Below the pieces are notes generated by a model. It saw only the letters and a list, made by a program, of their open reading frames with translations. It was not told the origin of the DNA and searched no databases. Below, in pieces: positions 1,022 to 62,602 of a stretch of 64,000 nt of DNA (position 1 is the stretch's first letter; every line of letters begins with the position of its first letter). The translations under genes were made by a program, and so were the position numbers. The DNA is from Candidatus Woesearchaeota archaeon (lineage in GTDB: Archaea; Nanobdellota; Nanobdellia; Pacearchaeales; GW2011-AR1): the NCBI GenBank assembly GCA_964621025.1, contig CAZUKQ010000001.1, positions 15,288 through 79,287 on the forward strand, given 5' to 3'.

Positions 1022-1063
1022 TTTTACAAATATTTATAAAACTGACTTGATTAATTTTTAAAA

Positions 1064-1094
1064 GGTGATGGTTCAGAATCGCCTAAGAATTCTA
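1064..1094 (+). promoter_or_regulatory. conserved 5' element, copy 1 (GGTGATGGTTCAGAATCGCCTAAGAATTCTA)
   Basis: Near-identical to copies at 33015 and 39947 and partly to 6453. Ends 10 nt before ATG 1105. TATA-like TTATAAAA at 1034-1041. Confidence 0.6.
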
Positions 1095-1104
1095 AAATAT
1101 TGAA

Positions 1105-5605: not shown

Positions 5606-6361
5606 ATGGAAAAACAAGTAAAAATAACACTGATAATTTCAGTAGCTGTTTTATTAGCAATCTGCATAATTGGATTAGGACTTTACAAAGTTGTAAATCC
5701 TGTTAGAGGTCAAGTAATTACTGTTGATGGTTCTTCTACGATAAAAGTAAATCCTGATTTAGTTACTATTAATTTCAATATTGAAACTAATGGTTCTGAT
5801 GCAAAAACTGCTAAAGATGCTAACGAAGTAATTTTGACGAAGTTGGTTGATGGCTTAATCGCTTTAGGTTTTGCTAGAGAAGATATTAAGACACAATCTT
5901 TGAATATCTATCCTTGGCAAGAATGGAATGGAAACAAAATGGTTGACAAAGGATACAAGGCTTCTCATCAAATTACCGTTGAGTTAAATACTTCCGATGC
6001 ATCTATGATTGCGAAAGTTATCGACGCTGGTGTTGATTCAGGTGCTCTTTTGAGTTACATAAACTTTGAGTTAAGTGATTCGAAACAAAATGAATACAAA
6101 GCACAGGCATTGAAACAAGCTGGTACAGATGCTAGAACAAAAGCAGTTGCAATTGCTGAAGGTCTTGGAATGAAAATTGGTTCTAAACCGGTTTCAGTAA
6201 CAACTTCAAGCTTTAACTATAATCCTTGGAATGTCTACAGTAATGCTGGCATGATGAGAGATGTAGCATACGCTGAAGAAGCAAAGTTAGCTGTTACAAA
6301 CATCGTTCCTGGTGATCAGACAGTTTACGGAAATATACAAGTAACTTACAAGTTATATTAA
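5606..6361 (+). CDS. SIMPL (DUF541) domain protein with signal anchor
   Basis: ITVDGSSTIKVNPDLVTINFNIET...KASHQITVEL pattern typical of the SIMPL/BP26 family. Start set at ATG 5606 because AGGAGGT lies 4 nt upstream. The ORF-track start 5591 would overlap the previous gene. Confidence 0.7.
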   Translation: MEKQVKITLIISVAVLLAICIIGLGLYKVVNPVRGQVITVDGSSTIKVNPDLVTINFNIETNGSDAKTAKDANEVILTKLVDGLIALGFAREDIKTQSLNIYPWQEWNGNKMVDKGYKASHQITVELNTSDASMIAKVIDAGVDSGALLSYINFELSDSKQNEYKAQALKQAGTDARTKAVAIAEGLGMKIGSKPVSVTTSSFNYNPWNVYSNAGMMRDVAYAEEAKLAVTNIVPGDQTVYGNIQVTYKLY

Positions 6362-6452
6362 TTTAATTTTCCTCTTTTATTTTTTGAGGATTTTTTCTTT
6401 TATTTATTTAAACACAAACCTTAAAAGTCACTAGGATTTCTATGAGTAAAGA

Positions 6453-6484
6453 GATTTTGGTAAAAGAATCGCCTCAGAATTCTG
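6453..6484 (+). promoter_or_regulatory. conserved 5' element, copy 2 (degenerate: GATTTTGGTAAAAGAATCGCCTCAGAATTCTG)
   Basis: Shares GGT..AGAATCGCCT.AGAATTCT with the other copies and has the same 10-nt spacing to ATG 6495. Confidence 0.45.
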
Positions 6485-6494
6485 TAAAAATAAA

Positions 6495-8266: not shown

Positions 8267-8776
8267 ATGGTAAACAAACTAAAAAATGGACTTTTAGGAA
8301 TTATCTTAGCGGGAAGTTTAGCTGGTTGCGATATTACTCCTTCAAGAATGGAATACTCTACCGTTCTTCATGAGGACACGGTGGTTAGTAAAAATTTTAT
8401 TCCTTCAAGAAAAGAAACTTCTTCTAGCCCCTCTGTAAGTCCTACACTTGTTAAAATGGGTTCTATGGGGATTGGTGTGAATGGTGGTATGGGTATTTGT
8501 GTTGGTGGTTTTGTTTTCAGTTCTGACGAAGAAGAATATGATACTCCTGAATTATATGATATTTCTTTTAAGGGGAAAAAGACTGTGTTTTCTTTTAGAG
8601 GAGCTGGAGAATCTGATAAGAGATTATATGCTCGATTTGAAGAGGGGCAAATTGTTAAGGTAGATTATAAAGAAAAATATGAGGTTACTTCTTTAGGTAG
8701 AAGCAAAATAGACAATCAAGAGATTATGACTACTAACTTTGTAGAGTTTGTTTTCCTAAATGCCGAGGCTAAATAA
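8267..8776 (+). CDS. lipobox lipoprotein with glycine-zipper segment
   Basis: N-terminus MVNKLKNGLLGIILAGSLAGC carries an L-A-G-C lipobox. GIGVNGGMGICVGGFVF is a glycine zipper. Confidence 0.6.
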   Translation: MVNKLKNGLLGIILAGSLAGCDITPSRMEYSTVLHEDTVVSKNFIPSRKETSSSPSVSPTLVKMGSMGIGVNGGMGICVGGFVFSSDEEEYDTPELYDISFKGKKTVFSFRGAGESDKRLYARFEEGQIVKVDYKEKYEVTSLGRSKIDNQEIMTTNFVEFVFLNAEAK

Positions 8777-32949: not shown

Positions 32950-33014
32950 TCCTTTAAAGAACTTTTCAATAAATTCAAAAGGTTTAAATTTAGTTATTTA
33001 TTAATCAAAAAAAG

Positions 33015-33046
33015 GGTGATGGTCAGAGAATCGCCTTAGAATTCTA
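33015..33046 (+). promoter_or_regulatory. conserved 5' element, copy 3 (GGTGATGGTCAGAGAATCGCCTTAGAATTCTA)
   Basis: Differs at 1 of 32 positions from copy 4. Ends 8 nt before ATG 33055. TATA-like TTTAAATT lies ~30 nt upstream of the element. Confidence 0.6.
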
Positions 33047-33054
33047 AAAGAAAA

Positions 33055-33558
33055 ATGAAAGAACATATATTAGAATACGTAAAAGAGCATTGTATTGGTA
33101 GTAGGGGAGCAGCATTACTTATAGGGCCTACTGCTGAAAAAGAATTAAGAGAGTTGTATCCCCAGTTTGATCCTGAAGGAAACAATTATCTTTTAGAAAT
33201 TACTGAGAATGAAACTCAATTCTGGAATAATTTTCTCGGGGCTGTTGGTGGTAACGACTGGAAAGATAGAGGATTCGAAAGACATACTGCTTGTGATTAT
33301 ACTGAAATGCATCTAAGAAAAAAGAAAAGATCACAACATCTTTTTTTACCAAATGTTGATGAAATGTTTTACAAATATGACATCCTTGGCAAGGGAATGA
33401 TGAATGCTGGGCTTAGACGTCTTTGGTCCTCAGACCGATTAGATTTAACAATTATTGGGTCAGTAAAAGACTTTAATTCCGAAAGCTACAAGAGAACATT
33501 TTGTGAATACACTTTTCCATTTTACATAGGAAACTGGTGTGCTATTGAAATAGAATAA
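33055..33558 (+). CDS. hypothetical protein (167 aa)
   Basis: ORF track. Preceded by the conserved 5' element. Confidence 0.5.
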   Translation: MKEHILEYVKEHCIGSRGAALLIGPTAEKELRELYPQFDPEGNNYLLEITENETQFWNNFLGAVGGNDWKDRGFERHTACDYTEMHLRKKKRSQHLFLPNVDEMFYKYDILGKGMMNAGLRRLWSSDRLDLTIIGSVKDFNSESYKRTFCEYTFPFYIGNWCAIEIE

Positions 33559-39906: not shown

Positions 39907-39946
39907 AAGAAAGATTTAAAAGCTCTAACAAACTATAAAATTAAAT

Positions 39947-39978
39947 GGTGATGGTCGGAGAATCGCCTTAGAATTCTA
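39947..39978 (+). promoter_or_regulatory. conserved 5' element, copy 4 (GGTGATGGTCGGAGAATCGCCTTAGAATTCTA)
   Basis: Differs at 1 of 32 positions from copy 3. Ends 10 nt before ATG 39989. TTTAAAAG box lies ~30 nt upstream. Confidence 0.6.
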
Positions 39979-39988
39979 CAAAAATAAA

Positions 39989-45857: not shown

Positions 45858-45881
45858 ATTAGCTTTTCATCACACATATTT

Positions 45882-45889
45882 TTATAAAT
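45882..45889 (+). promoter_or_regulatory. TATA box (TTATAAAT), starts 28 nt upstream of ATG 45910
   Basis: Fits the -28 TATA rule. Confidence 0.55.
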
Positions 45890-45909
45890 AAATTATTACT
45901 ATTTGTTTT

Positions 45910-46458
45910 ATGAGCAAAAAGATACCTCTTATTGGACTGCATGTTGGAAATATTTATCCTACACAAAATCCAGTTAGTGATTTAAACATTGGAAAGTATA
46001 CTGAAATTTCTTTAGTGAACTATTGTATTACACGAGGTGTCATTATGAGAGTCGCTAATCGGGATGAAAGTTTATTGGCCTACAGTTCTCAGAACCCTAC
46101 GGAAGTTTTTCAAGAACTTTTCCCAAAGTTTTATGTAACCAGATTTAACGGAAGACAACTTTTTGGTACTGGAGATTTTGACCAAGACACTCCAATGACT
46201 GGATTGAGTATCAGAAGAATAGAACCAGTTAAAGGAATAGTTGGTAATGCTTCGGCATTTGCTAATGAAGGCCTTTTTGAAAAGGTTACAAGAAAAGAAC
46301 CTATTTCTAAAGTACAAATTGAAAAAATAATTGAAAGTTTTGGTGATTCTGATGAATCTCCTAGTAACCTATTTCTTTCAAGATTAGACCCAAATGCTAA
46401 TCAGAACAAATATGAGAGACAACAAATAATTGAAATGCTAAAACCTTATTTGAATTAA
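45910..46458 (+). CDS. hypothetical protein (182 aa), first gene of the phosphatase cluster transcript
   Basis: ORF track with a canonical promoter. The next gene starts 4 nt downstream with no TATA of its own. Confidence 0.5.
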   Translation: MSKKIPLIGLHVGNIYPTQNPVSDLNIGKYTEISLVNYCITRGVIMRVANRDESLLAYSSQNPTEVFQELFPKFYVTRFNGRQLFGTGDFDQDTPMTGLSIRRIEPVKGIVGNASAFANEGLFEKVTRKEPISKVQIEKIIESFGDSDESPSNLFLSRLDPNANQNKYERQQIIEMLKPYLN

Positions 46459-46462
46459 TTAC

Positions 46463-46879
46463 ATGGAAAAACCTCAACGTTATCTTTTTGTTTGTGCTGC
46501 TAATGTTAACCGAAGTAAAGTTGGTGAGACTGTTTTTAAAAGAATGCTTGAAGAAAAAGGTTACACTGTCGGAAGTTTAGACCAAGTTCTTGGAAGCGAT
46601 TGTTATGTTGGTTCTGCTGGAACTGATATTGATTTTATGGCCTTGAAAGAAGGTAGGCAGTACACTGCTGATCTTGGGACTGCAGTGGATAAAGTTTTCG
46701 CTGCAGATGCTAGAGTCTATATTGACCTTAAAGAATATTTTAGAATGTCTGAAGACAAAATGATAAACCTCGGAATTCCAGATAGATTTGACATTAAACT
46801 TCCAAACGAAAAAAGAAACCTTCAAAGAATTATGAGGAAGAAATTAGCTCCTTATGTTCCTGAAAAAAAGAAAGATTAA
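46463..46879 (+). CDS. LMW-PTP-fold phosphatase, Ssu72-like P-loop (paralog 1)
   Basis: YLFVCAANVNRSKVGE has the C-x5-R-S P-loop near the N-terminus. IPDRFD is a candidate acid loop. Confidence 0.7.
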   Translation: MEKPQRYLFVCAANVNRSKVGETVFKRMLEEKGYTVGSLDQVLGSDCYVGSAGTDIDFMALKEGRQYTADLGTAVDKVFAADARVYIDLKEYFRMSEDKMINLGIPDRFDIKLPNEKRNLQRIMRKKLAPYVPEKKKD

Positions 46880-46880
46880 T

Positions 46881-46946
46881 TTGTTACTGAATGGTGCGAT
46901 TTTTTGGATAAAAGTTTATAAGTTCTTTTTTACTATATTGTTTATG
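46881..46946 (+). repeat. 66-nt duplicated promoter module, copy A
   Basis: TTGTTACTGAATGGTGCGATTTTTTGGATAAAAGTTTATAAGTTCTTTTTTACTATATTGTTTATG. About 60 of 66 nt identical to 48137-48202. Contains TTTATAAG about 30 nt before the ATG. Confidence 0.7.
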
Positions 46947-47258
46947 ACAGAAGTTGCACCTCAAAACATTTCAGGAAATATTAAGTATCTTTCTTTTATG
47001 GATGCTAATGGAACTAGAAAAGTTGTCGAAGTTACTCATTTGGTAAACAATAAATGCTGTTACACCTTTAAAGAAGGAGAAGCAGAAAAACAATTCCGTG
47101 GAAAAATAGCTACAATAGAAAGTCGTGTTGATGAACCTAGCGTTAAAGTAAAATTGGCTAATCTTTTACAAGATACTGTAATCTTACCTGCTGAACTTTA
47201 CGGAATTCCTGGTTCTGATTTGAGAATAAGTTTGCCAACTCTAAGGTATATTGAATAA
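46944..47258 (+). CDS. hypothetical protein (104 aa)
   Basis: Start moved to ATG 46944 at the end of the duplicated promoter module. The upstream part of ORF-track 46854 is read-through of that module. Confidence 0.45.
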   Translation: MTEVAPQNISGNIKYLSFMDANGTRKVVEVTHLVNNKCCYTFKEGEAEKQFRGKIATIESRVDEPSVKVKLANLLQDTVILPAELYGIPGSDLRISLPTLRYIE

Positions 47259-47312
47259 ACCTATATTCTCACTAGTGATAACATCTAAAAATATTTTTTT
47301 ACTAATATTAGT

Positions 47313-47732
47313 ATGGGAAACCCAACAAGATATCTCTTTGTATGCATGGCGAACATAAATAGAAGTGTGACTGGGGAGAAAGTTTTTAAAGAGATACTGG
47401 AAGAAAGAAACTTTAAAGTTGGGTCCTTGGAGGAGAAAACCGGAAGTGATTTTTATGTCGGGTCTGCTGGAGTAAAGGTGGATGACTTGGAATTGGACGG
47501 AAGACAATACGAAGATGAACTTGGTGATTCGGTTGACCAGATATTCGCAGCAGATTGGCATGTTTCTTTGATACTTAGCGCAGATTATACAACTAAAATG
47601 AGTAAGATAACTGACTTGAAGATTGGGGATTTCTATGATATTAAAGTTCCTCTTGATGAGTTTGCTCTTCGAACTGTTCTGCATGAAAGATTGCAAAAAC
47701 ATGTTCCCGAAAGAAGACCGGAGGCAAAATGA
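47313..47732 (+). CDS. LMW-PTP-fold phosphatase, Ssu72-like P-loop (paralog 2)
   Basis: YLFVCMANINRSVTGE and IGDFYD. CTAAAAAT lies 28 nt upstream. Confidence 0.7.
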   Translation: MGNPTRYLFVCMANINRSVTGEKVFKEILEERNFKVGSLEEKTGSDFYVGSAGVKVDDLELDGRQYEDELGDSVDQIFAADWHVSLILSADYTTKMSKITDLKIGDFYDIKVPLDEFALRTVLHERLQKHVPERRPEAK

Positions 47733-48136
47733 AAAAGCCAACAAGGTACTTATTTGTTTGTAGATTTAATCAGAATAGAAGTAAGACTGGCGAGGCTGTT
47801 TTTAGAAAAATGTTGGAGGAAAAAGGTTTCAAAGTTGGAAGCTTAGAAGATAAAACGGGATATGACTACTATGCTGGTGCCGCAGGTATGGAATGCCAGA
47901 ATACTGAGCACTCTAAAAAATATACTCAAGAATTGGGAGACAGTGTAGATTTTGTTTTCGCTGCTGACAGACAGATTGATATGCAACTTGAACTTTATTT
48001 AACGGTTCCAAGAAAAAAATTAGCAAACCTTAGAATTCCGGATAATTATAACATTACCTATCCTGATGAGAAAGCAGAATTGGAAGAAATTCTTCGTGAT
48101 AAGTTGGAAGAGTATATGCCGAAAAGGAAAATTTGA
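47729..48136 (+). CDS. LMW-PTP-fold phosphatase, Ssu72-like P-loop (paralog 3)
   Basis: YLFVCRFNQNRSKTGE and IPDNYN. ATGA overlap with paralog 2. Confidence 0.7.
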   Translation: MKKPTRYLFVCRFNQNRSKTGEAVFRKMLEEKGFKVGSLEDKTGYDYYAGAAGMECQNTEHSKKYTQELGDSVDFVFAADRQIDMQLELYLTVPRKKLANLRIPDNYNITYPDEKAELEEILRDKLEEYMPKRKI

Positions 48137-48202
48137 TTGTTACTAGAAGGTGCGATTTTTTGGATAAAAGTTTATAAGTTCTTTTTTACTAGATTATTTA
48201 TG
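48137..48202 (+). repeat. 66-nt duplicated promoter module, copy B
   Basis: TTGTTACTAGAAGGTGCGATTTTTTGGATAAAAGTTTATAAGTTCTTTTTTACTAGATTATTTATG. Confidence 0.7.
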
Positions 48203-48490
48203 GGAAAGGACTTGACCGTTTTGACAAACAGAGAGATTAGAAATCTCGGAATAGACTTGGAAGACGAAGACAAATTTGAAAAATTGGACTCCAATGATGC
48301 ATATATCTCATTTTGTTTAGGGGAAGGCCCTACTAGAATGGATGCTAGACGAGCTGCAAGAAAAGTTGCTAGAAAGTTTTTACGTAAAGGAACAGACCTA
48401 ATGGTTGTTTCTTTGGACTATTCAATGACTGTTGGAGCTTGGACAAGTGCTAATTACAAGGTTGACCAGTATAAAATGCGACTTGCATAA
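48200..48490 (+). CDS. hypothetical protein (96 aa)
   Basis: Start moved to ATG 48200 at the end of promoter module copy B. Confidence 0.45.
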   Translation: MGKDLTVLTNREIRNLGIDLEDEDKFEKLDSNDAYISFCLGEGPTRMDARRAARKVARKFLRKGTDLMVVSLDYSMTVGAWTSANYKVDQYKMRLA

Positions 48491-48527: not shown

Positions 48528-48857
48528 ATGACAGACAAAACATTAGAAGTAGATTTGGGAGATGAACTAATTCATCAGATTCAAGCTATTAAGAAATTTG
48601 AAGGTCGAAGAGTTAATGTAGAAGATAGCGTACATGGTGTTATTGTAGGTATTAACATGGGTTATAACGGACGAAGAGGATTTTATTCAGTTAGTAATGA
48701 AGGTAATCCTCAGGTTTTGTTCCCTCAAAATCTTACAAAAATGACTTTGTTAGAGGTAAAAGAAGGCGATGAAATGAGAATTAGACATTCTTATTTTGAA
48801 GTTACAGATAAGACAATTGATGTTACAAAAAAAGCTGCGCAGAGATACCGAACCTAA
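48528..48857 (+). CDS. hypothetical protein (109 aa)
   Basis: ORF track only. Confidence 0.45.
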   Translation: MTDKTLEVDLGDELIHQIQAIKKFEGRRVNVEDSVHGVIVGINMGYNGRRGFYSVSNEGNPQVLFPQNLTKMTLLEVKEGDEMRIRHSYFEVTDKTIDVTKKAAQRYRT

Positions 48858-48867
48858 ATAACAATTC

Positions 48868-48875
48868 TTATAAAT
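48868..48875 (+). promoter_or_regulatory. TATA box (TTATAAAT), starts 28 nt upstream of ATG 48896
   Basis: Fits the -28 TATA rule. Confidence 0.55.
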
Positions 48876-48895
48876 TAGGTTTTCTAATCGAAGTT

Positions 48896-50260
48896 ATGGT
48901 TGAAAAAGAATATACTTTTTTGGAGGCAACAACTTCTCTTTGTAATGTTTGCGAAAAAAGAATAGATGCGAAAATAATTGAAAAGAATAAATCGGTTTAT
49001 ATTTTAAAAAATTGTTTAGAACACGGCGAACAAATTGAATTATTGGAAGAGGATGCCGTTTATCACAGAAGAAAAATTCAGTATGACAAACCGGGAAACA
49101 AAATAAGGCCTGAAACTGCTGTGAAGAAGAGTTGTCCATTTGATTGTGGTCTTTGTTCTGCGCATGAACAACATACCTGTAATGCTCTAATCGATGTGAC
49201 TGATAAATGTGATTTGTGTTGCCCAATGTGCTACGCTTCTAGCGGAAAGGGGAAACATTTAGAGTTAAAAAAAATTGAAGAGATGATGGATTTTTTCCAG
49301 AAAAAAGAAGATGGAAAGGCTGAAATTTTGCAAATCAGCGGCGGAGAACCAACAACTCACCCAGAAATTATAAAAATACTTGAAATTGCAAAGAAAAAGA
49401 AATTTAGATATATAATGTTAAACACAAATGGATTGAAAATCGCTAGCGATGAAAATTTTGTTAAAGAACTTTCTAAGTTTAAAGGAAGATTTGAAATTTA
49501 TCTGCAGTTTGATGGTTTTAAAGATTCTACTTATAGATTCCTTAGAGGAAGAGAAGATTTATTGAAAACTAAAATGAAAGCAATTGAAAATTTGCAAAAA
49601 TATAAAATTCCAATAACTCTTGTTGCGACTATACAAAGGGGAATAAACGAAGATGAAATTGGAAAAATCTTTGAGTTTGCTGTTAACACGCGAGGAATAA
49701 GGGGAATAAATTTTCAGCCGGTTGCTTTTTTTGGAAGAACAAATAAATTTGATACCAAAGATAGAATTACACTTTCTGGAATTGTGAATAGACTTGAACA
49801 ACAAACTAAGGGAATGGTTAAGCGAACAGACATAATTCCTCTGCCTTGTAATGTTAATCGTGTTGGTGTGAGTTATTTTTACAAAGACGCGAAGGGATTT
49901 TTTCCCTTGACGAGAAATTTGAATGTTAGTTCTTACTTGCCTTTAATCGATAACACTTTTGCATTTGATGCAGATAAAATTTTAGAAGATAAAACAAAGG
50001 CTATTGGTTGTTGTAGCTGTTTTACAAAGTTTTTTAATGATTTTAGTAAATTAATTCCAAAGGATTACAAAAAATTCTCCAATGAAGAGAAGATGAACTG
50101 GTGGGATGAACATTCTTTTAGAGTTAGTATTGTTTCCTTTGTTGACAAATACAATTTTGATATGAAATCTATGAAAAAAGAATGCGTACATTTCGTAACT
50201 CCTGATATGAAAAGAATTCCTTTTTCTTCGTATAATATGTTTTACAGAAAGGCGATTTAG
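48896..50260 (+). CDS. radical SAM enzyme with N-terminal Cys-rich segment and extra CPFDCGLC cluster motif (possibly tetraether-lipid-synthase/MJ0619-like clade)
   Basis: CNVCEKR...NCLEHG, CPFDCGLCSAHEQHTC, the radical SAM motif CDLCCPMC (C-x3-C-x2-C), ISGGEPT, and a ~200-aa C-terminal extension with CC.C. Confidence 0.8.
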   Translation: MVEKEYTFLEATTSLCNVCEKRIDAKIIEKNKSVYILKNCLEHGEQIELLEEDAVYHRRKIQYDKPGNKIRPETAVKKSCPFDCGLCSAHEQHTCNALIDVTDKCDLCCPMCYASSGKGKHLELKKIEEMMDFFQKKEDGKAEILQISGGEPTTHPEIIKILEIAKKKKFRYIMLNTNGLKIASDENFVKELSKFKGRFEIYLQFDGFKDSTYRFLRGREDLLKTKMKAIENLQKYKIPITLVATIQRGINEDEIGKIFEFAVNTRGIRGINFQPVAFFGRTNKFDTKDRITLSGIVNRLEQQTKGMVKRTDIIPLPCNVNRVGVSYFYKDAKGFFPLTRNLNVSSYLPLIDNTFAFDADKILEDKTKAIGCCSCFTKFFNDFSKLIPKDYKKFSNEEKMNWWDEHSFRVSIVSFVDKYNFDMKSMKKECVHFVTPDMKRIPFSSYNMFYRKAI

Positions 50261-50294: not shown

Positions 50295-50504
50295 ATGGAA
50301 GCAAAGAAGGTGATTTTAATTCTATTGACAATTTTTATAGTTGGTCCTTTGGTTTTTATTGGTACTTGTTTTCCATTAGGTCTTTTTAGTTTTGGCATGT
50401 ACTCTAACTATAATACCTTTGTTGTGACCTTTGTCTATGCTTTGTCAATAACCTTCGCAATTTGGGTAGTTATTGCAATGTCTAAAAGGATTGCTAGAAA
50501 ATAA
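50295..50504 (+). CDS. small 2-TM membrane protein (paralog A)
   Basis: KKVILILLTIFIVGPLVFIGTCFPL parallels 51087-51323. ATATAAAC lies 28 nt upstream. Confidence 0.5.
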   Translation: MEAKKVILILLTIFIVGPLVFIGTCFPLGLFSFGMYSNYNTFVVTFVYALSITFAIWVVIAMSKRIARK

Positions 50505-51093: not shown

Positions 51094-51323
51094 ACACTAG
51101 GGAAATTAAAGAAAAATTAAGTATGAAGAAAGTTGTGTTAATGACTTTAACTGGTTTATTTATTGGTCCTTTGGTTTTTTTTGGTAGTTGTGTTCCTCTT
51201 CTGGGTTTTTCAGAGAGCTTTGGAGATAAATATGTAATCTTCTATTTTTTTAGTTTTATATTATCTGTAGTTCTTACCGGCCTAGTATGTTATTTTATTA
51301 TAAAAAGGATTCTTAAAAAATGA
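51087..51323 (+). CDS. small 2-TM membrane protein (paralog B)
   Basis: KKVVLMTLTGLFIGPLVFFGSCVPL parallels 50295-50504. Confidence 0.5.
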   Translation: MVDTREIKEKLSMKKVVLMTLTGLFIGPLVFFGSCVPLLGFSESFGDKYVIFYFFSFILSVVLTGLVCYFIIKRILKK

Positions 51324-60515: not shown

Positions 60516-60839
60516 ATGGAAGACCTAACTTCTAAAGCAAAACCAAAAGAAATAGTTTATATAATGGATCATGAAAGTGTTAATGGGTTTTGTACCATTG
60601 GCTTGTTTGAAGATAGTTCGGTTATCTACAGGCTTACTAAAGATGCCTCACTAATAAGAAAACCTGGAAGACCAGATCATCCTATAGAACTGCGAGATGA
60701 AGAATGTGAAGTATATCGGCCAATTAATCCTAATGATAGTATATCTAGAAATATTGGAAGAACATACGATTCTGAAGAAAGTCTATCAAGAGAATTTGGG
60801 AGACCTTATTATCCTTTAGAACTAGGGGGTGACGAGTAA
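60516..60839 (+). CDS. hypothetical protein (107 aa), first gene of the RiPP-like operon
   Basis: Internal repeat GRPDHPIEL / GRPYYPLEL. Its stop overlaps the ATG of precursor 1 (TAATG). Confidence 0.5.
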   Translation: MEDLTSKAKPKEIVYIMDHESVNGFCTIGLFEDSSVIYRLTKDASLIRKPGRPDHPIELRDEECEVYRPINPNDSISRNIGRTYDSEESLSREFGRPYYPLELGGDE

Positions 60840-61066
60840 TGGTAACTTCTTTACTAGCATTAATTGATGGCTTAAAATTAACTGGTCAAGAAATTTCTTC
60901 CTCAGGTAGACTTGCTTATTCTTCAGTTTATCAAAGAAGTAACGGAGATTGTGGTAGTGATACGGGGGGCTATTGTCATTGTCCAGAAGACAATAACTGC
61001 GACTGTAATCCTAGTGGGGCATATTGCGATTGTCATAGTTTATTCAACGTTGGGGGTAACAAATAA
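60839..61066 (+). CDS. RiPP-like precursor peptide 1 (75 aa)
   Basis: Leader MVTSLLALIDGLKLTGQEISSSGRLAY. Core GDCGSDTGGYCHCPEDNNCDCNPSGAYCDCHS. Tail GGNK. Confidence 0.7.
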   Translation: MVTSLLALIDGLKLTGQEISSSGRLAYSSVYQRSNGDCGSDTGGYCHCPEDNNCDCNPSGAYCDCHSLFNVGGNK

Positions 61067-61154
61067 AATGGTAAATTCATTAATAGCATTATTGGACGGT
61101 TTAAAATTAACAGGTAGAGCAATTTCTTCAGAAGGAAGATTGGCTTATGCAACA
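61055..61154 (+). repeat. 100-nt perfect direct repeat, copy 1 (end of precursor 1 plus leader of precursor 2)
   Basis: GGTAACAAATAAAATGGTAAATTCATTAATAGC...GCTTATGCAACA is identical to 61296-61395 by direct reading. Confidence 0.85.
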
Positions 61155-61307
61155 CAAAAGGTAATAGATTTTAGTTATTCTTGGGACTGTTCTGAATTTA
61201 ACAATTGTGATTGTAACGCAGAGTGTGATTGTGGTGATTGCAATTTTCAAGGAGCAGTGATTACTTCTTCAGATAATAGATACTTCATGAAAGGAGGTAA
61301 CAAATAA
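61068..61307 (+). CDS. RiPP-like precursor peptide 2 (79 aa)
   Basis: Leader MVNSLIALLDGLKLTGRAISSEGRLAYAT. Core SWDCSEFNNCDCNAECDCGDCNFQ. Tail GGNK. This is the real start inside ORF-track 60912-61307. Confidence 0.7.
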   Translation: MVNSLIALLDGLKLTGRAISSEGRLAYATQKVIDFSYSWDCSEFNNCDCNAECDCGDCNFQGAVITSSDNRYFMKGGNK

Positions 61308-61395
61308 AATGGTAAATTCATTAATAGCATTATTGGACGGTTTAAAATTAACAGGTAGAGCAATTTCTTCAGAAGGAAGATTGGCTTATGCAACA
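61296..61395 (+). repeat. 100-nt perfect direct repeat, copy 2 (end of precursor 2 plus leader of precursor 3)
   Basis: Identical to 61055-61154. The repeat period is 241 nt. Confidence 0.85.
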
Positions 61396-61488
61396 GTTGG
61401 TTCTTTGTCCTACAATGGTCACTGTGATTGCGAAGGAAATTGTCAAGTTCCAAGTGGAGATTATTGTCCTGCACCAAGCGACCAATAG
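61309..61488 (+). CDS. RiPP-like precursor peptide 3 (59 aa, not in ORF track)
   Basis: Hand translation gives MVNSLIALLDGLKLTGRAISSEGRLAYATVGSLSYNGHCDCEGNCQVPSGDYCPAPSDQ*. AGGAGGT lies 10 nt upstream. Confidence 0.65.
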   Translation: MVNSLIALLDGLKLTGRAISSEGRLAYATVGSLSYNGHCDCEGNCQVPSGDYCPAPSDQ

Positions 61489-61549
61489 TTTCTTATATAA
61501 ATTTTTTTAATTTTTTTAATAAGCATAAAGAGGGGTGATAAAAACCAAG

Positions 61550-62602
61550 ATGATAAACAAATTCAACGCAGTTTGGTTAGCAGTCACCTACGACTGTCAA
61601 AATAAATGTAAATGGTGTTATGCCTCTTCAAATATGGAGGCTTACCGAGGTAGAAATTTACCTCAAGAAAAAATTGCTCCCACTCTAGATTTATTGAAAG
61701 AACTCGGAGTATCTAGAACTACATTAATTGGAGGTGAACCAACTATTTATAAATTTCTCCCTACACTTTTAGAAGAACATCAAAAAAGAGGGATAAAGGC
61801 CGGATTGGTCACAAATGGAAGAAGATTAAAAGACAAAGAATTTTCTGGCATGATAAAAAAATTAGGAATAGAAAGTCTGACCGTTTCTATAGAAGGATAT
61901 GATTCAAAATCTCAAGACAGTTTAACACAATCACCCGGAAGTTATGAACAAGCTATGGAAGGAATTTACGTTGCTAGTTCTAAAGGAATTAATGTTAGTA
62001 CAAATACTGTAATCAGTAAATCTAGTGTAGACAATCTTGAAAAAATAGTAGACTCTTTAATAGATACTCCTGTAAAATCTCTTTCATTTAATGTTTGTGG
62101 ACCTTGTTTAACGAGTGAAGATAATCCTGAAATTATTAACCCTTCATTAGCTGCTAAAAGATTTGAAGAAATTTACAAATATACTAAGGCAAAAGGAAAG
62201 GTTGCTCGGCTTGTTACCCCCATTCCTTTATGTTTTTTTGAGGAAGAAATAAGAACTGAACTAGCTTCTCAAAAATTGATTTATGGTGGTCCTTGTCAAT
62301 TGGCTCATGGACATAATTTTGTTATTGATTACAATGGAGATTTAATTCCTTGTACACATATGTCTGGTTTTCCAATGGAAAATATTTTTACCAAAGAAGG
62401 GGTTTTATCTTCTGAGAAATTTATTGAGAGATATAATTCTCCTAAAGGAATTCCATTTCAGTTTAGACAGAAATTAAATAGGACTGCATCTGAAAAGTGT
62501 GATTCTCCTAATTGTAATCAGCCATGTTCTGGCGGTTGTCCTTTAATTTGGAAAGGATTCGATCCAGATAAAGAAATAAGGGGTGTCTCCAAACTTTTAT
62601 AA
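61550..62602 (+). CDS. radical SAM enzyme with C-terminal SPASM-like domain (peptide maturase candidate)
   Basis: CQNKCKWC (C-x3-C-x2-C), LIGGEPT, C-terminal GDLIPC (G-x4-C) and CDSPNCNQPCSGGC. Start at ATG 61550, with GGGGTGAT 10 nt upstream. The ORF track uses GTG 61535. Confidence 0.85.
   Translation: MINKFNAVWLAVTYDCQNKCKWCYASSNMEAYRGRNLPQEKIAPTLDLLKELGVSRTTLIGGEPTIYKFLPTLLEEHQKRGIKAGLVTNGRRLKDKEFSGMIKKLGIESLTVSIEGYDSKSQDSLTQSPGSYEQAMEGIYVASSKGINVSTNTVISKSSVDNLEKIVDSLIDTPVKSLSFNVCGPCLTSEDNPEIINPSLAAKRFEEIYKYTKAKGKVARLVTPIPLCFFEEEIRTELASQKLIYGGPCQLAHGHNFVIDYNGDLIPCTHMSGFPMENIFTKEGVLSSEKFIERYNSPKGIPFQFRQKLNRTASEKCDSPNCNQPCSGGCPLIWKGFDPDKEIRGVSKLL

What the first reader, a model, noticed from the sequence alone, without database searches (positions are those of the whole stretch)
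46463..48136. Three tandem phosphatase paralogs with an Ssu72-like C-x-x-N-x-N-R-S P-loop
All three ~135-aa proteins begin (K/N)P(Q/T)RYLFVC-x-x-N-x-NRS: VCAANVNRS, VCMANINRS and VCRFNQNRS. Each has a conserved (L)(G/K/R)I(P/G)D-x-(F/Y)-(D/N) loop near the C-terminus. Canonical LMW-PTPs have C-(L/V)-G-N-I-C-R-S. The Asn in place of the second Cys, and the following EEKG(Y/F)-x-VGS segment, look instead like the RNA polymerase II CTD phosphatase Ssu72 (yeast VCASNNNRS, human VCSSNQNRS), though these proteins are about 60 residues shorter. Archaeal RNAP has no CTD, so the substrate is unknown. The triplication, with interleaved orphan genes each driven by a duplicated promoter module, suggests a diversifying system rather than one housekeeping enzyme.
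Basis: partly seen in the sequence, partly recalled or inferred. Interest (0 to 1): 0.7.

Follow-up and report, generated by a model that had tools for sequence, protein, structure and literature searches.

The report
Three divergent low-molecular-weight phosphatase paralogs
A small DPANN (Woesearchaeota-like) archaeon carries three old, well-conserved copies of a stripped-down cysteine phosphatase; it belongs to the low-molecular-weight tyrosine-phosphatase family rather than to Ssu72, and what it dephosphorylates is unknown.

Summary
Three + strand genes (46463-46879, 47313-47732, 47729-48136; 138, 139 and 135 aa; 46-48% identical) all carry C-x-x-N-x-N-R-S and an I-x-D-x-(F/Y) loop.

The Ssu72 reading does not hold as a family assignment. 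A 59-sequence family profile hits solved LMW-PTPs over its full length (E 1e-13) but Ssu72 only at the P-loop (E 2e-3). hhalign gives 4e-25 to a YwlE profile and 2e-6 to Ssu72. A pLDDT-95 model's 50 best PDB matches are all LMW-PTP or ArsC. The ~60-aa Ssu72 cap is absent.

The proteins are still very divergent: 23-27 bits on Pfam LMWPc against 110-178 for canonical enzymes. They have no second P-loop Cys, no W-loop and a short D-loop. They do carry a weak Ssu72-like signal that canonical LMW-PTPs lack.

The triplication is old. Each copy has its own orthologues elsewhere, and copy 1 gives dN/dS of about 0.07. Differences between lineages cluster in the three active-site loops.

The two orphan genes and their duplicated 81-nt promoter module (43 nt exact) are insertions specific to this lineage.

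Best reading: three active, subfunctionalised Cys phosphatases of an uncharacterised LMW-PTP clade, substrate unknown. Interest is modest.

The parts
45910..46458 (+). 182-aa ORF of unknown function, probably co-transcribed with phosphatase copy 1. Its stop lies 4 nt before the copy 1 ATG and an AT-rich TATA-like promoter lies upstream.
   Evidence: No Pfam hit. Not homologous to the genes at the same position in the close relative L001. Codon usage is gene-like.
46463..46879 (+). Phosphatase copy 1 (W1, 138 aa). P-loop C11-A-A-N-V-N-R17-S18, D-loop I-P-D107-R-F.
   Evidence: Orthologues: L001 7450-7869 (79-81% identity by BLAST and codon alignment), P0002, P0003, P0006. dN/dS 0.07.
46866..46946 (+). 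Duplicated module, copy 1 (exact core 46893-46935). It holds a T6 run, then AAAGTTTATAAG (TATA-like, centred about 27 nt before the ATG), then TTTTTTACTA, then the ATG of orphan 1. Read as a terminator plus a promoter for a leaderless or near-leaderless transcript.
   Evidence: RNA folding is not better than shuffles. Absent from relative L001 and from JGI metagenome contigs.
46944..47258 (+). Orphan gene 1 (104 aa), a lineage-specific insertion between copy 1 and the copy 2 promoter.
   Evidence: Singleton in the 15-billion-protein collection. No family hit. Gene-like codon usage. Absent at this position in L001 and L062.
47259..47312 (+). Promoter region of the copy 2-copy 3 operon (…tattctcactagtga…tctaaaaatatttttttactaatattagtATG).
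   Evidence: The same sequence pattern precedes the second phosphatase gene in L001 (7870-7913) and L062 (244-297).
47313..47732 (+). Phosphatase copy 2 (W2, 139 aa). P-loop C-M-A-N-I-N-R-S, D-loop I-G-D-F-Y. Cys11 is its only cysteine.
   Evidence: Orthologues: L001 7914-8321 (72%), P0007, P0148.
47729..48136 (+). Phosphatase copy 3 (W3, 135 aa). P-loop C-R-F-N-Q-N-R-S, D-loop I-P-D-N-Y. Its start overlaps the copy 2 stop (ATGA).
   Evidence: Orthologue P0005 sits in L062 directly after a copy-1-type gene.
48122..48202 (+). Duplicated module, copy 2 (exact core 48149-48191), ending at the ATG of orphan 2.
48200..48490 (+). Orphan gene 2 (96 aa), a lineage-specific insertion between copy 3 and the conserved 109-aa gene. 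Unrelated to orphan 1.
48528..48857 (+). Conserved 109-aa protein of unknown function. It is the gene that follows the phosphatase array in relatives, so it is a possible functional partner.
   Evidence: 80% identical to L064 3901-4233, with a 43% paralogue at L064 3569-3859. Its N-terminus is also seen right after the copy-3-type gene in L062. Only a weak AbrB-like Pfam hit (E 0.037). No PDB relative.

Best explanation
The three genes encode catalytically competent cysteine phosphatases. They belong to a small, very divergent and uncharacterised clade of the low-molecular-weight PTP (LMWPc) fold family.

Mechanism, inferred from conserved residues and the established LMW-PTP chemistry:
1. The Cys11 thiolate attacks a phosphomonoester (or phosphoramidate). 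The substrate is held by the P-loop backbone amides and Arg17. Ser18 and Asn14 keep the loop and the thiolate in shape.
2. Asp107, in the short loop after strand beta4, protonates the leaving group.
3. Asp107 then activates water to hydrolyse the phospho-cysteine intermediate.

Compared with canonical LMW-PTPs, the clade shows four differences:
- It has Asn where the second P-loop Cys sits, so no C12-C17-type redox switch is possible.
- It lacks the roughly 20-residue W/variable loop.
- Its D-loop is about 7 residues shorter.
- The DPANN long forms carry a conserved hairpin (GYxVGSLxxxxGxDxYVGSAG) between helix 1 and strand 2.

The three copies are old paralogs kept under purifying selection. 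They differ systematically in exactly the three loops that surround the active site. I therefore read them as three subfunctionalised phosphatases with different, most likely phosphoprotein, substrates.

They are expressed from two units: [182-aa ORF-copy 1] and [copy 2-copy 3]. The orphan genes and their duplicated promoter module are later insertions, not parts of the enzyme system.

Shown: fold and family, conserved residues, age of the paralogs, selection on copy 1, locus history. Inferred: catalytic activity, substrate class, transcription units.
For: Family and fold:
- All 59 clade members hit Pfam LMWPc.
- The family profile against PDB gives 2CWD E 1.2e-13 over positions 1-129 and YwlE E 1.6e-13. 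Ssu72 gives only 2.4e-3 over positions 4-41.
- hhalign gives YwlE 3.6e-19, bovine LMW-PTP 2.7e-14, Ssu72 4.2e-8. Against a YwlE profile it gives 3.6e-25.
- The AF2 model has pLDDT 95.2. Its 50 best Foldseek PDB hits are all LMW-PTP, YwlE, Wzb or ArsC (best E 9.6e-8, TM 0.72).

Catalytic residues:
- Cys11 is invariant. Arg17, Ser18, the SAG motif and Asp107 are at least 90% conserved across 59 sequences.
- C-x5-R-S is present in 135 of 147 proteins on file.

Loop differences:
- There is a 20-residue gap after SAG and a 7-residue gap before the Asp in the alignment to 2CWD.

Age and selection:
- In the NJ tree each window copy groups with its own orthologues.
- Copy 1 against its L001 orthologue gives dN 0.136, dS 1.96, omega 0.07. 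Copy 2 gives dN 0.20 with dS saturated. These are comparable to RpoK.

Lineage-specific residues:
- P-loop positions C+1, C+2 and C+4, the post-SAG loop and the D-loop are conserved within each lineage and differ between lineages.
- The literature shows that P-loop position 5, the W-loop and the D-loop set LMW-PTP substrate preference (PMC7772506).

Locus history:
- Comparison with L001, L062 and L064 shows the orphans and the module are insertions.
Against: - There are no biochemical data for any member of the clade.
- The window proteins sit at the Pfam LMWPc threshold: 23.0, 27.3 and 24.9 bits against a cut-off of 23.2, with matches mostly N-terminal. No NCBIfam model matches.
- Loss of the W-loop removes one wall of the canonical phosphotyrosine pocket. 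A pTyr preference therefore cannot be assumed.
- No kinase or other obvious partner lies nearby. Gene neighbourhood gives no functional link. RpoK and the exosome genes recur only in close relatives, and GatD and GatB only in other Woesearchaeota.
- Model coordinates could not be inspected, so pocket geometry is untested.
- dS is saturated, so omega values are rough.
Confidence: 0.7

Rival explanations
1. They are minimal Ssu72-type phosphoserine phosphatases. On this view the clade is specifically related to the ancestor of Ssu72 and acts on a transcription or RNA-processing factor, which would fit the adjacent RpoK and exosome genes.
For: - The P-loop is C-x-x-N-x-N-R-S, as in Ssu72.
- The D-loop N-L-x-I-P-D follows strand 4 directly and aligns without gaps to Ssu72 N-V-D-I-Q-D.
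- 13 of 59 members touch Pfam Ssu72. Ssu72 is not among the 25 families listed for 59 canonical LMW-PTPs, so at most one touches it.
- hhalign to Ssu72 gives E 1e-6 to 2e-5 over about 100 columns for two subgroups (G1, G4). A YwlE profile gives 1e-3 over 32 columns.
- The gene order RpoK-phosphatase recurs in the window, L001 and L064.
Against: - The clade is 10-20 orders of magnitude closer to LMW-PTPs.
- No Ssu72 structure is among the 50 best fold matches.
- Ssu72 Pfam scores are below the cut-off.
- The roughly 60-aa cap that forms the Ssu72 substrate groove is absent.
- A short D-loop is also found in ArsC-type enzymes (own knowledge of the pI258 ArsC sequence).
- The C+5 position is Asn in only about half of the clade.
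- Linkage to RpoK is seen only among close relatives. More distant Woesearchaeota place the gene near GatD and GatB instead.
- The Ssu72 profile used here had only 2 sequences.
Confidence: 0.1
2. They act on a non-protein substrate, such as a phospholipid head-group phosphate or a small phosphorylated metabolite, or on phosphoarginine or phosphohistidine, rather than on pTyr, pSer or pThr proteins.
For: - Without the W-loop the site may be open enough for other substrates.
- A bacterial short-form relative (P0184) sits 3 nt downstream of a CDP-alcohol phosphatidyltransferase gene, next to PS decarboxylase, in 24 contigs.
- LMW-PTP-fold enzymes are known to have shifted to pArg (YwlE, DARP) through small P-loop changes (PMC7772506).
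Against: - P-loop position 5 is Val, Ile or Gln, not the Thr that marks pArg phosphatases.
- The bacterial neighbourhood comes from one organism and from a 25%-identical relative.
- DPANN archaea have little lipid biosynthesis (general knowledge).
- Nothing in the window links the genes to metabolism.
Confidence: 0.12
3. They are LMW-PTP-type arsenate reductases (ArsC).
For: ArsC structures appear among the weaker fold and profile matches. The size (131-139 aa) and the short D-loop are similar.
Against: - The thioredoxin-coupled mechanism needs two further cysteines. Copy 2 has only Cys11, and copies 1 and 3 each have one extra, non-conserved Cys.
- The profile E-value to pI258 and B. subtilis ArsC is only 0.01-0.05.
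- There are no ars genes nearby.
Confidence: 0.02
4. One or more copies are pseudo-phosphatases, or the array is part of a fast-evolving ('diversifying') conflict or defence system together with the orphan genes.
For: - The genes flanking the phosphatases differ completely between close relatives.
- Tandem pairs or fusions of the family recur (L001, L013, L016, P0004).
- A promoter module has recently been copied.
Against: - All catalytic residues are intact in all three copies and in their orthologues.
- Copy 1 is under purifying selection.
- There is no PADLOC hit, and only a weak PHROG hit of unknown function.
- The orphans are absent from the arrays of relatives, so they are not integral parts.
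Confidence: 0.05

Closest known systems
Low-molecular-weight protein tyrosine phosphatases (Pfam PF01451 LMWPc), e.g. T. thermophilus TT1001 (2CWD), B. subtilis YwlE (4KK3), E. coli Wzb (2WMY), bovine/human ACP1
   Same: - Four-stranded Rossmann-like fold.
- N-terminal C-x5-R-S P-loop with Asn at position 4.
- SAG after strand 2.
- General-acid Asp followed by an aromatic residue.
- Best profile and fold matches.
   Different: - Asn (or another polar residue) replaces the second P-loop Cys.
- The roughly 20-residue W/variable loop is deleted and the D-loop is about 7 residues shorter.
- There is no D-P-Y-Y motif.
- The DPANN forms have an extra conserved hairpin between helix 1 and strand 2.
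- Only 23-27 bits on the Pfam model, against 110-178 for canonical members.
Ssu72, the RNA polymerase II CTD Ser5-P/Ser7-P phosphatase (Pfam PF04722; human 3O2S)
   Same: - P-loop C-x-x-N-x-N-R-S.
- D-loop immediately after strand 4 (N-[LV]-x-I-x-D).
- hhalign probability 89-95% over about 100 columns.
   Different: - No cap (substrate-groove) insertion of about 60 aa and no C-terminal extension.
- Pfam scores below the cut-off.
- Not among the 50 best fold matches.
- No CTD or symplekin in archaea (general knowledge).
Short 'predicted protein tyrosine phosphatase' proteins of bacteria and metagenomes (105-125 aa; the JGI label, possibly COG4551 or COG5350)
   Same: They fall in the same clade in the profile searches and share C-x-(A/G)-N-x-(N/polar)-R-S, the missing W-loop and the short D-loop. 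They are also uncharacterised.
   Different: They lack the hairpin between helix 1 and strand 2 and the basic Y-V-P-E-K-K tail of the DPANN long forms. They are 25-35% identical to the window proteins.
LMW-PTP-type arsenate reductase ArsC (S. aureus pI258, B. subtilis)
   Same: Similar size, fold and short D-loop. They are weak profile and fold matches.
   Different: The two resolving cysteines are absent. The match is far weaker than to the LMW-PTPs.

Membership tests
LMW-PTP (Pfam PF01451 LMWPc) | N-terminal C-x5-R-(S/T) phosphate-binding loop after strand 1, with Asn at position 4 | tested here: met
   CAANVNRS, CMANINRS and CRFNQNRS at residues 11-18. Cys is invariant and Arg and Ser are at least 90% conserved in 59 relatives.
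LMW-PTP (Pfam PF01451 LMWPc) | Profile score above the curated Pfam cut-off (23.2 bits) | tested here: inconclusive
   Copy 1 scores 23.0 (just below), copy 2 scores 27.3 and copy 3 scores 24.9. All 59 clade members match at E<0.1, best 1.2e-14. Canonical members score 110-178 bits.
LMW-PTP (Pfam PF01451 LMWPc) | LMW-PTP fold (four parallel strands, P-loop at the N-terminus of helix 1) | tested here: met
   AF2 model with pLDDT 95.2. Its 50 best Foldseek PDB hits are all LMW-PTP, YwlE, Wzb or ArsC, with probability 1.00 and TM up to 0.72.
LMW-PTP (Pfam PF01451 LMWPc) | General-acid Asp in a D-loop followed by aromatic residues (D-P-Y-Y type) | tested here: met
   Asp107 is at least 90% conserved and aligns with the Asp of 2CWD 'DPYY'. 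An aromatic residue sits at D+2. The loop is 7 residues shorter and lacks the Pro.
LMW-PTP (Pfam PF01451 LMWPc) | Second P-loop cysteine (C-x-G-N-x-C-R-S) | tested here: not met
   Asn in all three copies. Across the clade the position is N 68, D 10, Q 9, H 8 and R 7, among others. This is typical of canonical members rather than strictly defining.
LMW-PTP (Pfam PF01451 LMWPc) | W/variable loop carrying the Trp/Tyr wall of the phosphotyrosine pocket | tested here: not met
   A 20-residue gap directly after SAG in the alignments to 2CWD and YwlE. The role of the W-loop is described in PMC7772506.
Ssu72 (Pfam PF04722) | P-loop C-x-x-N-x-N-R-S | tested here: met
Ssu72 (Pfam PF04722) | Profile score above the curated cut-off (25.3 bits) | tested here: not met
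   15.1 bits, 11.5 bits and no hit. The matches cover only residues 7-38.
Ssu72 (Pfam PF04722) | Cap/substrate-binding subdomain inserted between strand 2 and the next core helix (human residues about 40-100) | tested here: not met
   The proteins are 55-59 residues shorter. hhalign opens gaps of about 13 and 20 residues in the query opposite this region. That the cap forms the CTD groove is own knowledge of the Ssu72 structures.
Ssu72 (Pfam PF04722) | Best structural neighbour is Ssu72 | tested here: not met
   No Ssu72 chain appears among the 50 best of 85 significant Foldseek hits.
Ssu72 (Pfam PF04722) | Dephosphorylates the Pol II CTD (pSer5/pSer7) and binds symplekin/Pta1 | not testable with these tools
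   Archaeal RNAP has no CTD (general knowledge). This needs biochemistry.
YwlE-type protein arginine phosphatase | Thr at P-loop position 5 | tested here: not met
   Val, Ile and Gln in copies 1-3. The criterion comes from PMC7772506.
ArsC (LMW-PTP-type arsenate reductase) | Two additional redox cysteines (Cys82 and Cys89 in pI258 ArsC) | tested here: not met
   Cysteines are at 11 and 47 in copy 1, at 11 only in copy 2, and at 11 and 56 in copy 3.

The most novel reading that the evidence does not exclude
The C-x-x-N-x-N-R-S clade (DPANN long forms plus bacterial short forms) could be the closest surviving prokaryotic relative of Ssu72. It would then be a 'bare core' from which the eukaryotic CTD phosphatase arose by gaining the cap subdomain.

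Evidence in favour:
- All four subgroups of the clade score better against Ssu72 than a YwlE profile, ArsC or bovine LMW-PTP do.
- The P-loop Asn and the short post-beta4 D-loop are shared.

Caveats:
- The Ssu72 profile used had only two sequences.
- The controls were narrow.
- No Asgard members were looked for.
- Convergence, or retention of ancestral states, explains the same data.
Probability: 0.1. Interest if true: 0.7.

Novelty: new variant of a known kind. Interest (0 to 1): 0.3.

Why it matters
Protein phosphorylation in DPANN archaea is essentially unexplored. A genome of this reduced type that keeps three conserved, differentiated copies of one phosphatase suggests that reversible phosphorylation, or a related phosphate-removal step, matters to its biology.

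The clade is also a natural experiment in how far the LMW-PTP scaffold can be trimmed while every catalytic residue is kept. It has lost the W-loop, shortened the D-loop and dropped the redox cysteine. Its substrate preference would show how specificity is built on this fold.

If the weak Ssu72 affinity proved phylogenetically real, it would bear on the origin of the eukaryotic CTD phosphatase.

As it stands, this is a divergent member of a well-known enzyme family with no established function. The interest is modest.

Tried and rejected
- NCBIfam: no hit for any of the three proteins at E<=1 beyond noise.
- PADLOC: nothing. PHROGs: only phrog_12429 (unknown function, E about 1e-4, P-loop region).
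- The first AF2 run, with 3 sequences, was mediocre (pLDDT 75.6). It was replaced by the 59-sequence run.
- The search for related loci with the 59-sequence alignment failed because no stretch was conserved enough. It was repeated with 13 close sequences.
- The 33-nt core of the module was not found in JGI metagenome contigs, nor a 28-nt core, with up to 3 mismatches, in relative L001.
- RNA folding of the module is no better than shuffles, so a structured RNA was rejected.
- The two orphans are unrelated to each other, to the 109-aa protein and to the variable genes of L001.
- The 109-aa neighbour has no PDB relative.
- Rfam and tRNA scans of the window were empty.
- Literature searches (Ssu72 with LMW-PTP and archaea; DPANN with PTP; COG4551) found no description of this clade. 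Xiang et al. 2010 could not be fetched.
- Rejected readings: ArsC (cysteine count), YwlE-type pArg phosphatase (no Thr at position 5), defence or diversifying system (purifying selection on copy 1, old paralogs), Ssu72 membership.
- Gene neighbourhood (RpoK and exosome genes; GatD and GatB; radical SAM) was examined. It looks like lineage synteny rather than functional linkage.
Full report
**Observation**

They are 46-48% identical, with 48 invariant columns. All begin (K/N)P(Q/T)RYLFVC-x-x-N-x-NRS, and all have an I-x-D-x-(F/Y) loop near residue 107. NCBI and other sources call the same genes. One correction is needed: copies 2 and 3 overlap by 4 nt (ATGA) with nothing between them. The orphan genes follow copy 1 and copy 3 only.

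**Which family**

Single-sequence Pfam scans give weak LMWPc hits: 23.0, 27.3 and 24.9 bits against a cut-off of 23.2. Ssu72 hits are weaker still: 15.1 bits, 11.5 bits and none, against a cut-off of 25.3. NCBIfam gives nothing.

An exhaustive profile search of 1.84 billion representative proteins found only 144 relatives at E<=1e-3. From these I built a 59-sequence alignment (A2).

| Test | LMW-PTP side | Ssu72 side |
|---|---|---|
| A2 profile vs PDB sequences | 2CWD E 1.2e-13 over profile positions 1-129; YwlE E 1.6e-13 | E 2.4e-3, positions 4-41 only |
| Pfam, each of 59 members | 59 of 59 match LMWPc | 13 of 59 match at E<0.1 |
| hhalign of A2 vs single sequences | YwlE 3.6e-19; bovine LMW-PTP 2.7e-14 | human Ssu72 4.2e-8 |
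| hhalign of A2 vs profiles | YwlE profile 3.6e-25 | two-sequence Ssu72 profile 2.4e-6 |

With A2 as input, AlphaFold2 gave a confident model (pLDDT 95.2). Its 50 best Foldseek matches in the PDB are all LMW-PTPs, YwlE, Wzb or ArsC (best E 9.6e-8, TM 0.72). No Ssu72 chain is among them. The proteins therefore belong to the LMW-PTP fold family, not to Ssu72.

**How ordinary are they?**

Not very.
- Canonical LMW-PTPs score 110-178 bits on the same Pfam model.
- Alignments to 2CWD and YwlE show a deletion of about 20 residues directly after the SAG motif. This is the W/variable loop that forms one wall of the phosphotyrosine pocket (PMC7772506).
- They also show a 7-residue deletion before the catalytic Asp.
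- The second P-loop Cys is replaced throughout the clade by Asn (68 of 135) or by other polar residues.
- The DPANN members carry an extra conserved hairpin, GYxVGSLxxxxGxDxYVGSAG, between helix 1 and strand 2.

**Is there anything to the Ssu72 resemblance?**

A little.
- 13 of 59 clade members touch the Pfam Ssu72 model at E<0.1. Ssu72 is not among the 25 families listed for 59 canonical LMW-PTP controls, so at most one of them touches it. None of five individually scanned controls did.
- All four subgroups of the clade give better hhalign scores to Ssu72 (E 1e-6 to 2e-5) than the comparators do. A YwlE profile gives 1.1e-3 over the P-loop only, ArsC gives 4e-3 and bovine LMW-PTP gives 0.05.
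- In two subgroups the Ssu72 alignment runs from the P-loop to the D-loop.
- The D-loop N-L-x-I-P-D aligns without gaps to Ssu72 N-V-D-I-Q-D.

Against this:
- The roughly 60-residue cap that builds the Ssu72 substrate groove is absent.
- A short D-loop also occurs in ArsC (own knowledge).
- The Ssu72 profile had only two sequences.

I treat a specific evolutionary link to Ssu72 as possible but unlikely (about 0.1).

**Distribution**

Genome hits are Candidatus Woesearchaeota MAGs. Housekeeping genes of the window are 72-89% identical to a JGI metagenome contig, L001. The window also has archaeal exosome genes, RpoK and GatB. It is therefore from a DPANN, Woesearchaeota-like archaeon.

Shorter relatives of 105-125 aa occur in bacteria and in metagenomes. 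JGI labels them '(predicted) protein tyrosine phosphatase'. I found no paper describing the clade.

**The paralogs**

In an NJ tree each window copy groups with its own orthologues:
- Copy 1 groups with L001a, P0002, P0003 and P0006.
- Copy 2 groups with L001b, P0007 and P0148.
- Copy 3 groups with P0005.

The triplication therefore predates this genome. Copy 1 against its L001 orthologue gives dN 0.136, dS 1.96 and omega 0.07. Copy 2 gives dN 0.20 with dS saturated. Both are similar to RpoK.

Residues conserved within a lineage but different between lineages cluster in three places:
- the P-loop (A-A-x-V, M-A/G-x-I, R/K-F-x-Q);
- the post-SAG loop;
- the D-loop.

These are the elements known to set specificity in LMW-PTPs. 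This is the signature of subfunctionalised enzymes, not of a diversifying system. PADLOC finds nothing.

Tandem pairs or fusions of the family recur elsewhere: L001, L013, L016 and the 283-aa fusion P0004. Most loci have a single copy.

**Locus history**

| Locus | Gene order |
|---|---|
| L001 | RpoK, two unrelated ORFs, copy 1, copy 2, small membrane ORF, GatB |
| L062 | copy-1 type, promoter, copy-3 type, homologue of the window's 109-aa gene |
| L064 | Rrp41, Rrp42, RpoK, fused double phosphatase, then two paralogues of the 109-aa gene |

The conserved core is thus RpoK … phosphatase(s) … 109-aa protein.

The window's two orphans (104 and 96 aa) are absent from these relatives, are unrelated to each other, and are singletons in a 15-billion-protein collection. 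Their codon usage is nevertheless gene-like.

Each orphan sits directly after a phosphatase stop codon, behind the duplicated module. The module is 81 nt at 88% identity, with a 43-nt exact core unique to these two sites. It contains a T6 run, a TATA-like AAAGTTTATAAG centred about 27 nt before the ATG, and TTTTTTACTA. This fits a terminator plus a promoter for a leaderless transcript. That reading is an inference from standard archaeal promoter geometry. The module does not fold as RNA. Because the flanking paralogs are saturated at synonymous sites, a 43-nt exact match means recent copying or gene conversion. The mechanism is unexplained.

**Mechanism (inferred)**

The chemistry is the standard two-step Cys-phosphatase reaction. 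Cys11 is the nucleophile, and Arg17 with the P-loop amides binds the phosphate. Ser18 and Asn14 support the loop, and Asp107 is the general acid/base.

There can be no C12-C17-type redox switch. Copy 2 has a single Cys, which also excludes an ArsC mechanism. Position 5 of the P-loop is Val, Ile or Gln rather than Thr, which argues against a YwlE-type phosphoarginine preference.

Without the W-loop the pocket is probably shallower than in pTyr-specific enzymes. I therefore leave the substrate class open: most likely phosphoprotein, with pTyr versus pSer/pThr undecided. Neighbourhood gives no functional clue. RpoK and the exosome genes recur only in close relatives, and GatD and GatB recur in more distant Woesearchaeota.

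**Verdict**

The proteins form a new, trimmed-down variant of a known enzyme family, in three old specialised copies. The Ssu72 likeness is a real but local feature. Interest is modest (0.3) unless the Ssu72 link or an unusual substrate is demonstrated.

Noticed in passing
window 60839-62602: Three tandem small ORFs (60839-61066, about 61070-61307, 61309-61488) share a conserved leader, MV(T/N)SL(L/I)AL(I/L)DGLKLTG…GRLAY, followed by different Cys-rich cores. They lie directly upstream of a radical-SAM enzyme with a Cys-rich C-terminal region (61535/61550-62602). This looks like a RiPP (ranthipeptide- or sactipeptide-like) cluster in a DPANN archaeon.
   Followed up: partly
window 1059-1103, 6449-6493, 33011-33055, 39943-39987: A recurrent module of about 45 nt (…GGTGATGGTC.GAGAATCGCCTTAGAATTCTA.AAA…) ends right at the ATG of four + strand genes. 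A similar sequence precedes an ORF in relative L001 (about 6245-6292). It may be a shared promoter or operator.
   Followed up: no
window 48860-48885; L001 about 8322-8350 and about 8601-8630: The promoter-like sequence AACAATTCTTATAAATTAGGTTTTCT precedes the radical-SAM gene at 48896. It also occurs twice in the relative L001, after its second phosphatase gene and before GatB. It marks the conserved right-hand boundary of the variable region.
   Followed up: partly
window 48528-48857; L064 3569-4233; L062 730-839: A conserved 109-aa protein of unknown function follows the phosphatase array in three genomes and is duplicated in L064. It has only a weak AbrB-like Pfam hit and no PDB relative. 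It is a candidate partner of the phosphatases.
   Followed up: partly
window 45858-46458 compared with L001 6246-7448: The genes between RpoK and the first phosphatase are completely different in two genomes whose housekeeping genes are 72-89% identical. The window has one 182-aa ORF and L001 has 200-aa and 159-aa ORFs. This is a small hypervariable slot of orphan genes.
   Followed up: partly
L009-L012 (JGI metagenomes), gene at L009 4001-4357: A bacterial short-form relative (P0184, 118 aa) starts 3 nt after a CDP-alcohol phosphatidyltransferase gene, next to PS decarboxylase. This arrangement is seen in 24 contigs. It is a possible hint of a lipid-phosphate substrate in that branch.
   Followed up: no
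L005, L006, L007, L008, L019: In other Woesearchaeota loci, the single-copy phosphatase lies between GatD (Asparaginase + GatD_N, opposite strand) and GatB or a radical-SAM gene. L006, L008 and L019 also carry tandem pairs of roughly 255-aa proteins with a sigma-70 region-4-like HTH.
   Followed up: partly
window 48896-50260: A radical-SAM protein with an HMPTM-type N-terminal zinc ribbon (Pfam PF23545) also sits next to the phosphatase in L008 and L019.
   Followed up: no
window 1-64000: No tRNA gene and no Rfam family at gathering threshold anywhere in the 64 kb.
   Followed up: yes
window 50304-50374 and 51126-51196: A 71-nt repeat at 73% identity marks two paralogous small membrane-protein genes upstream of the ICMT-like and DUF4395 genes.
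   Followed up: no
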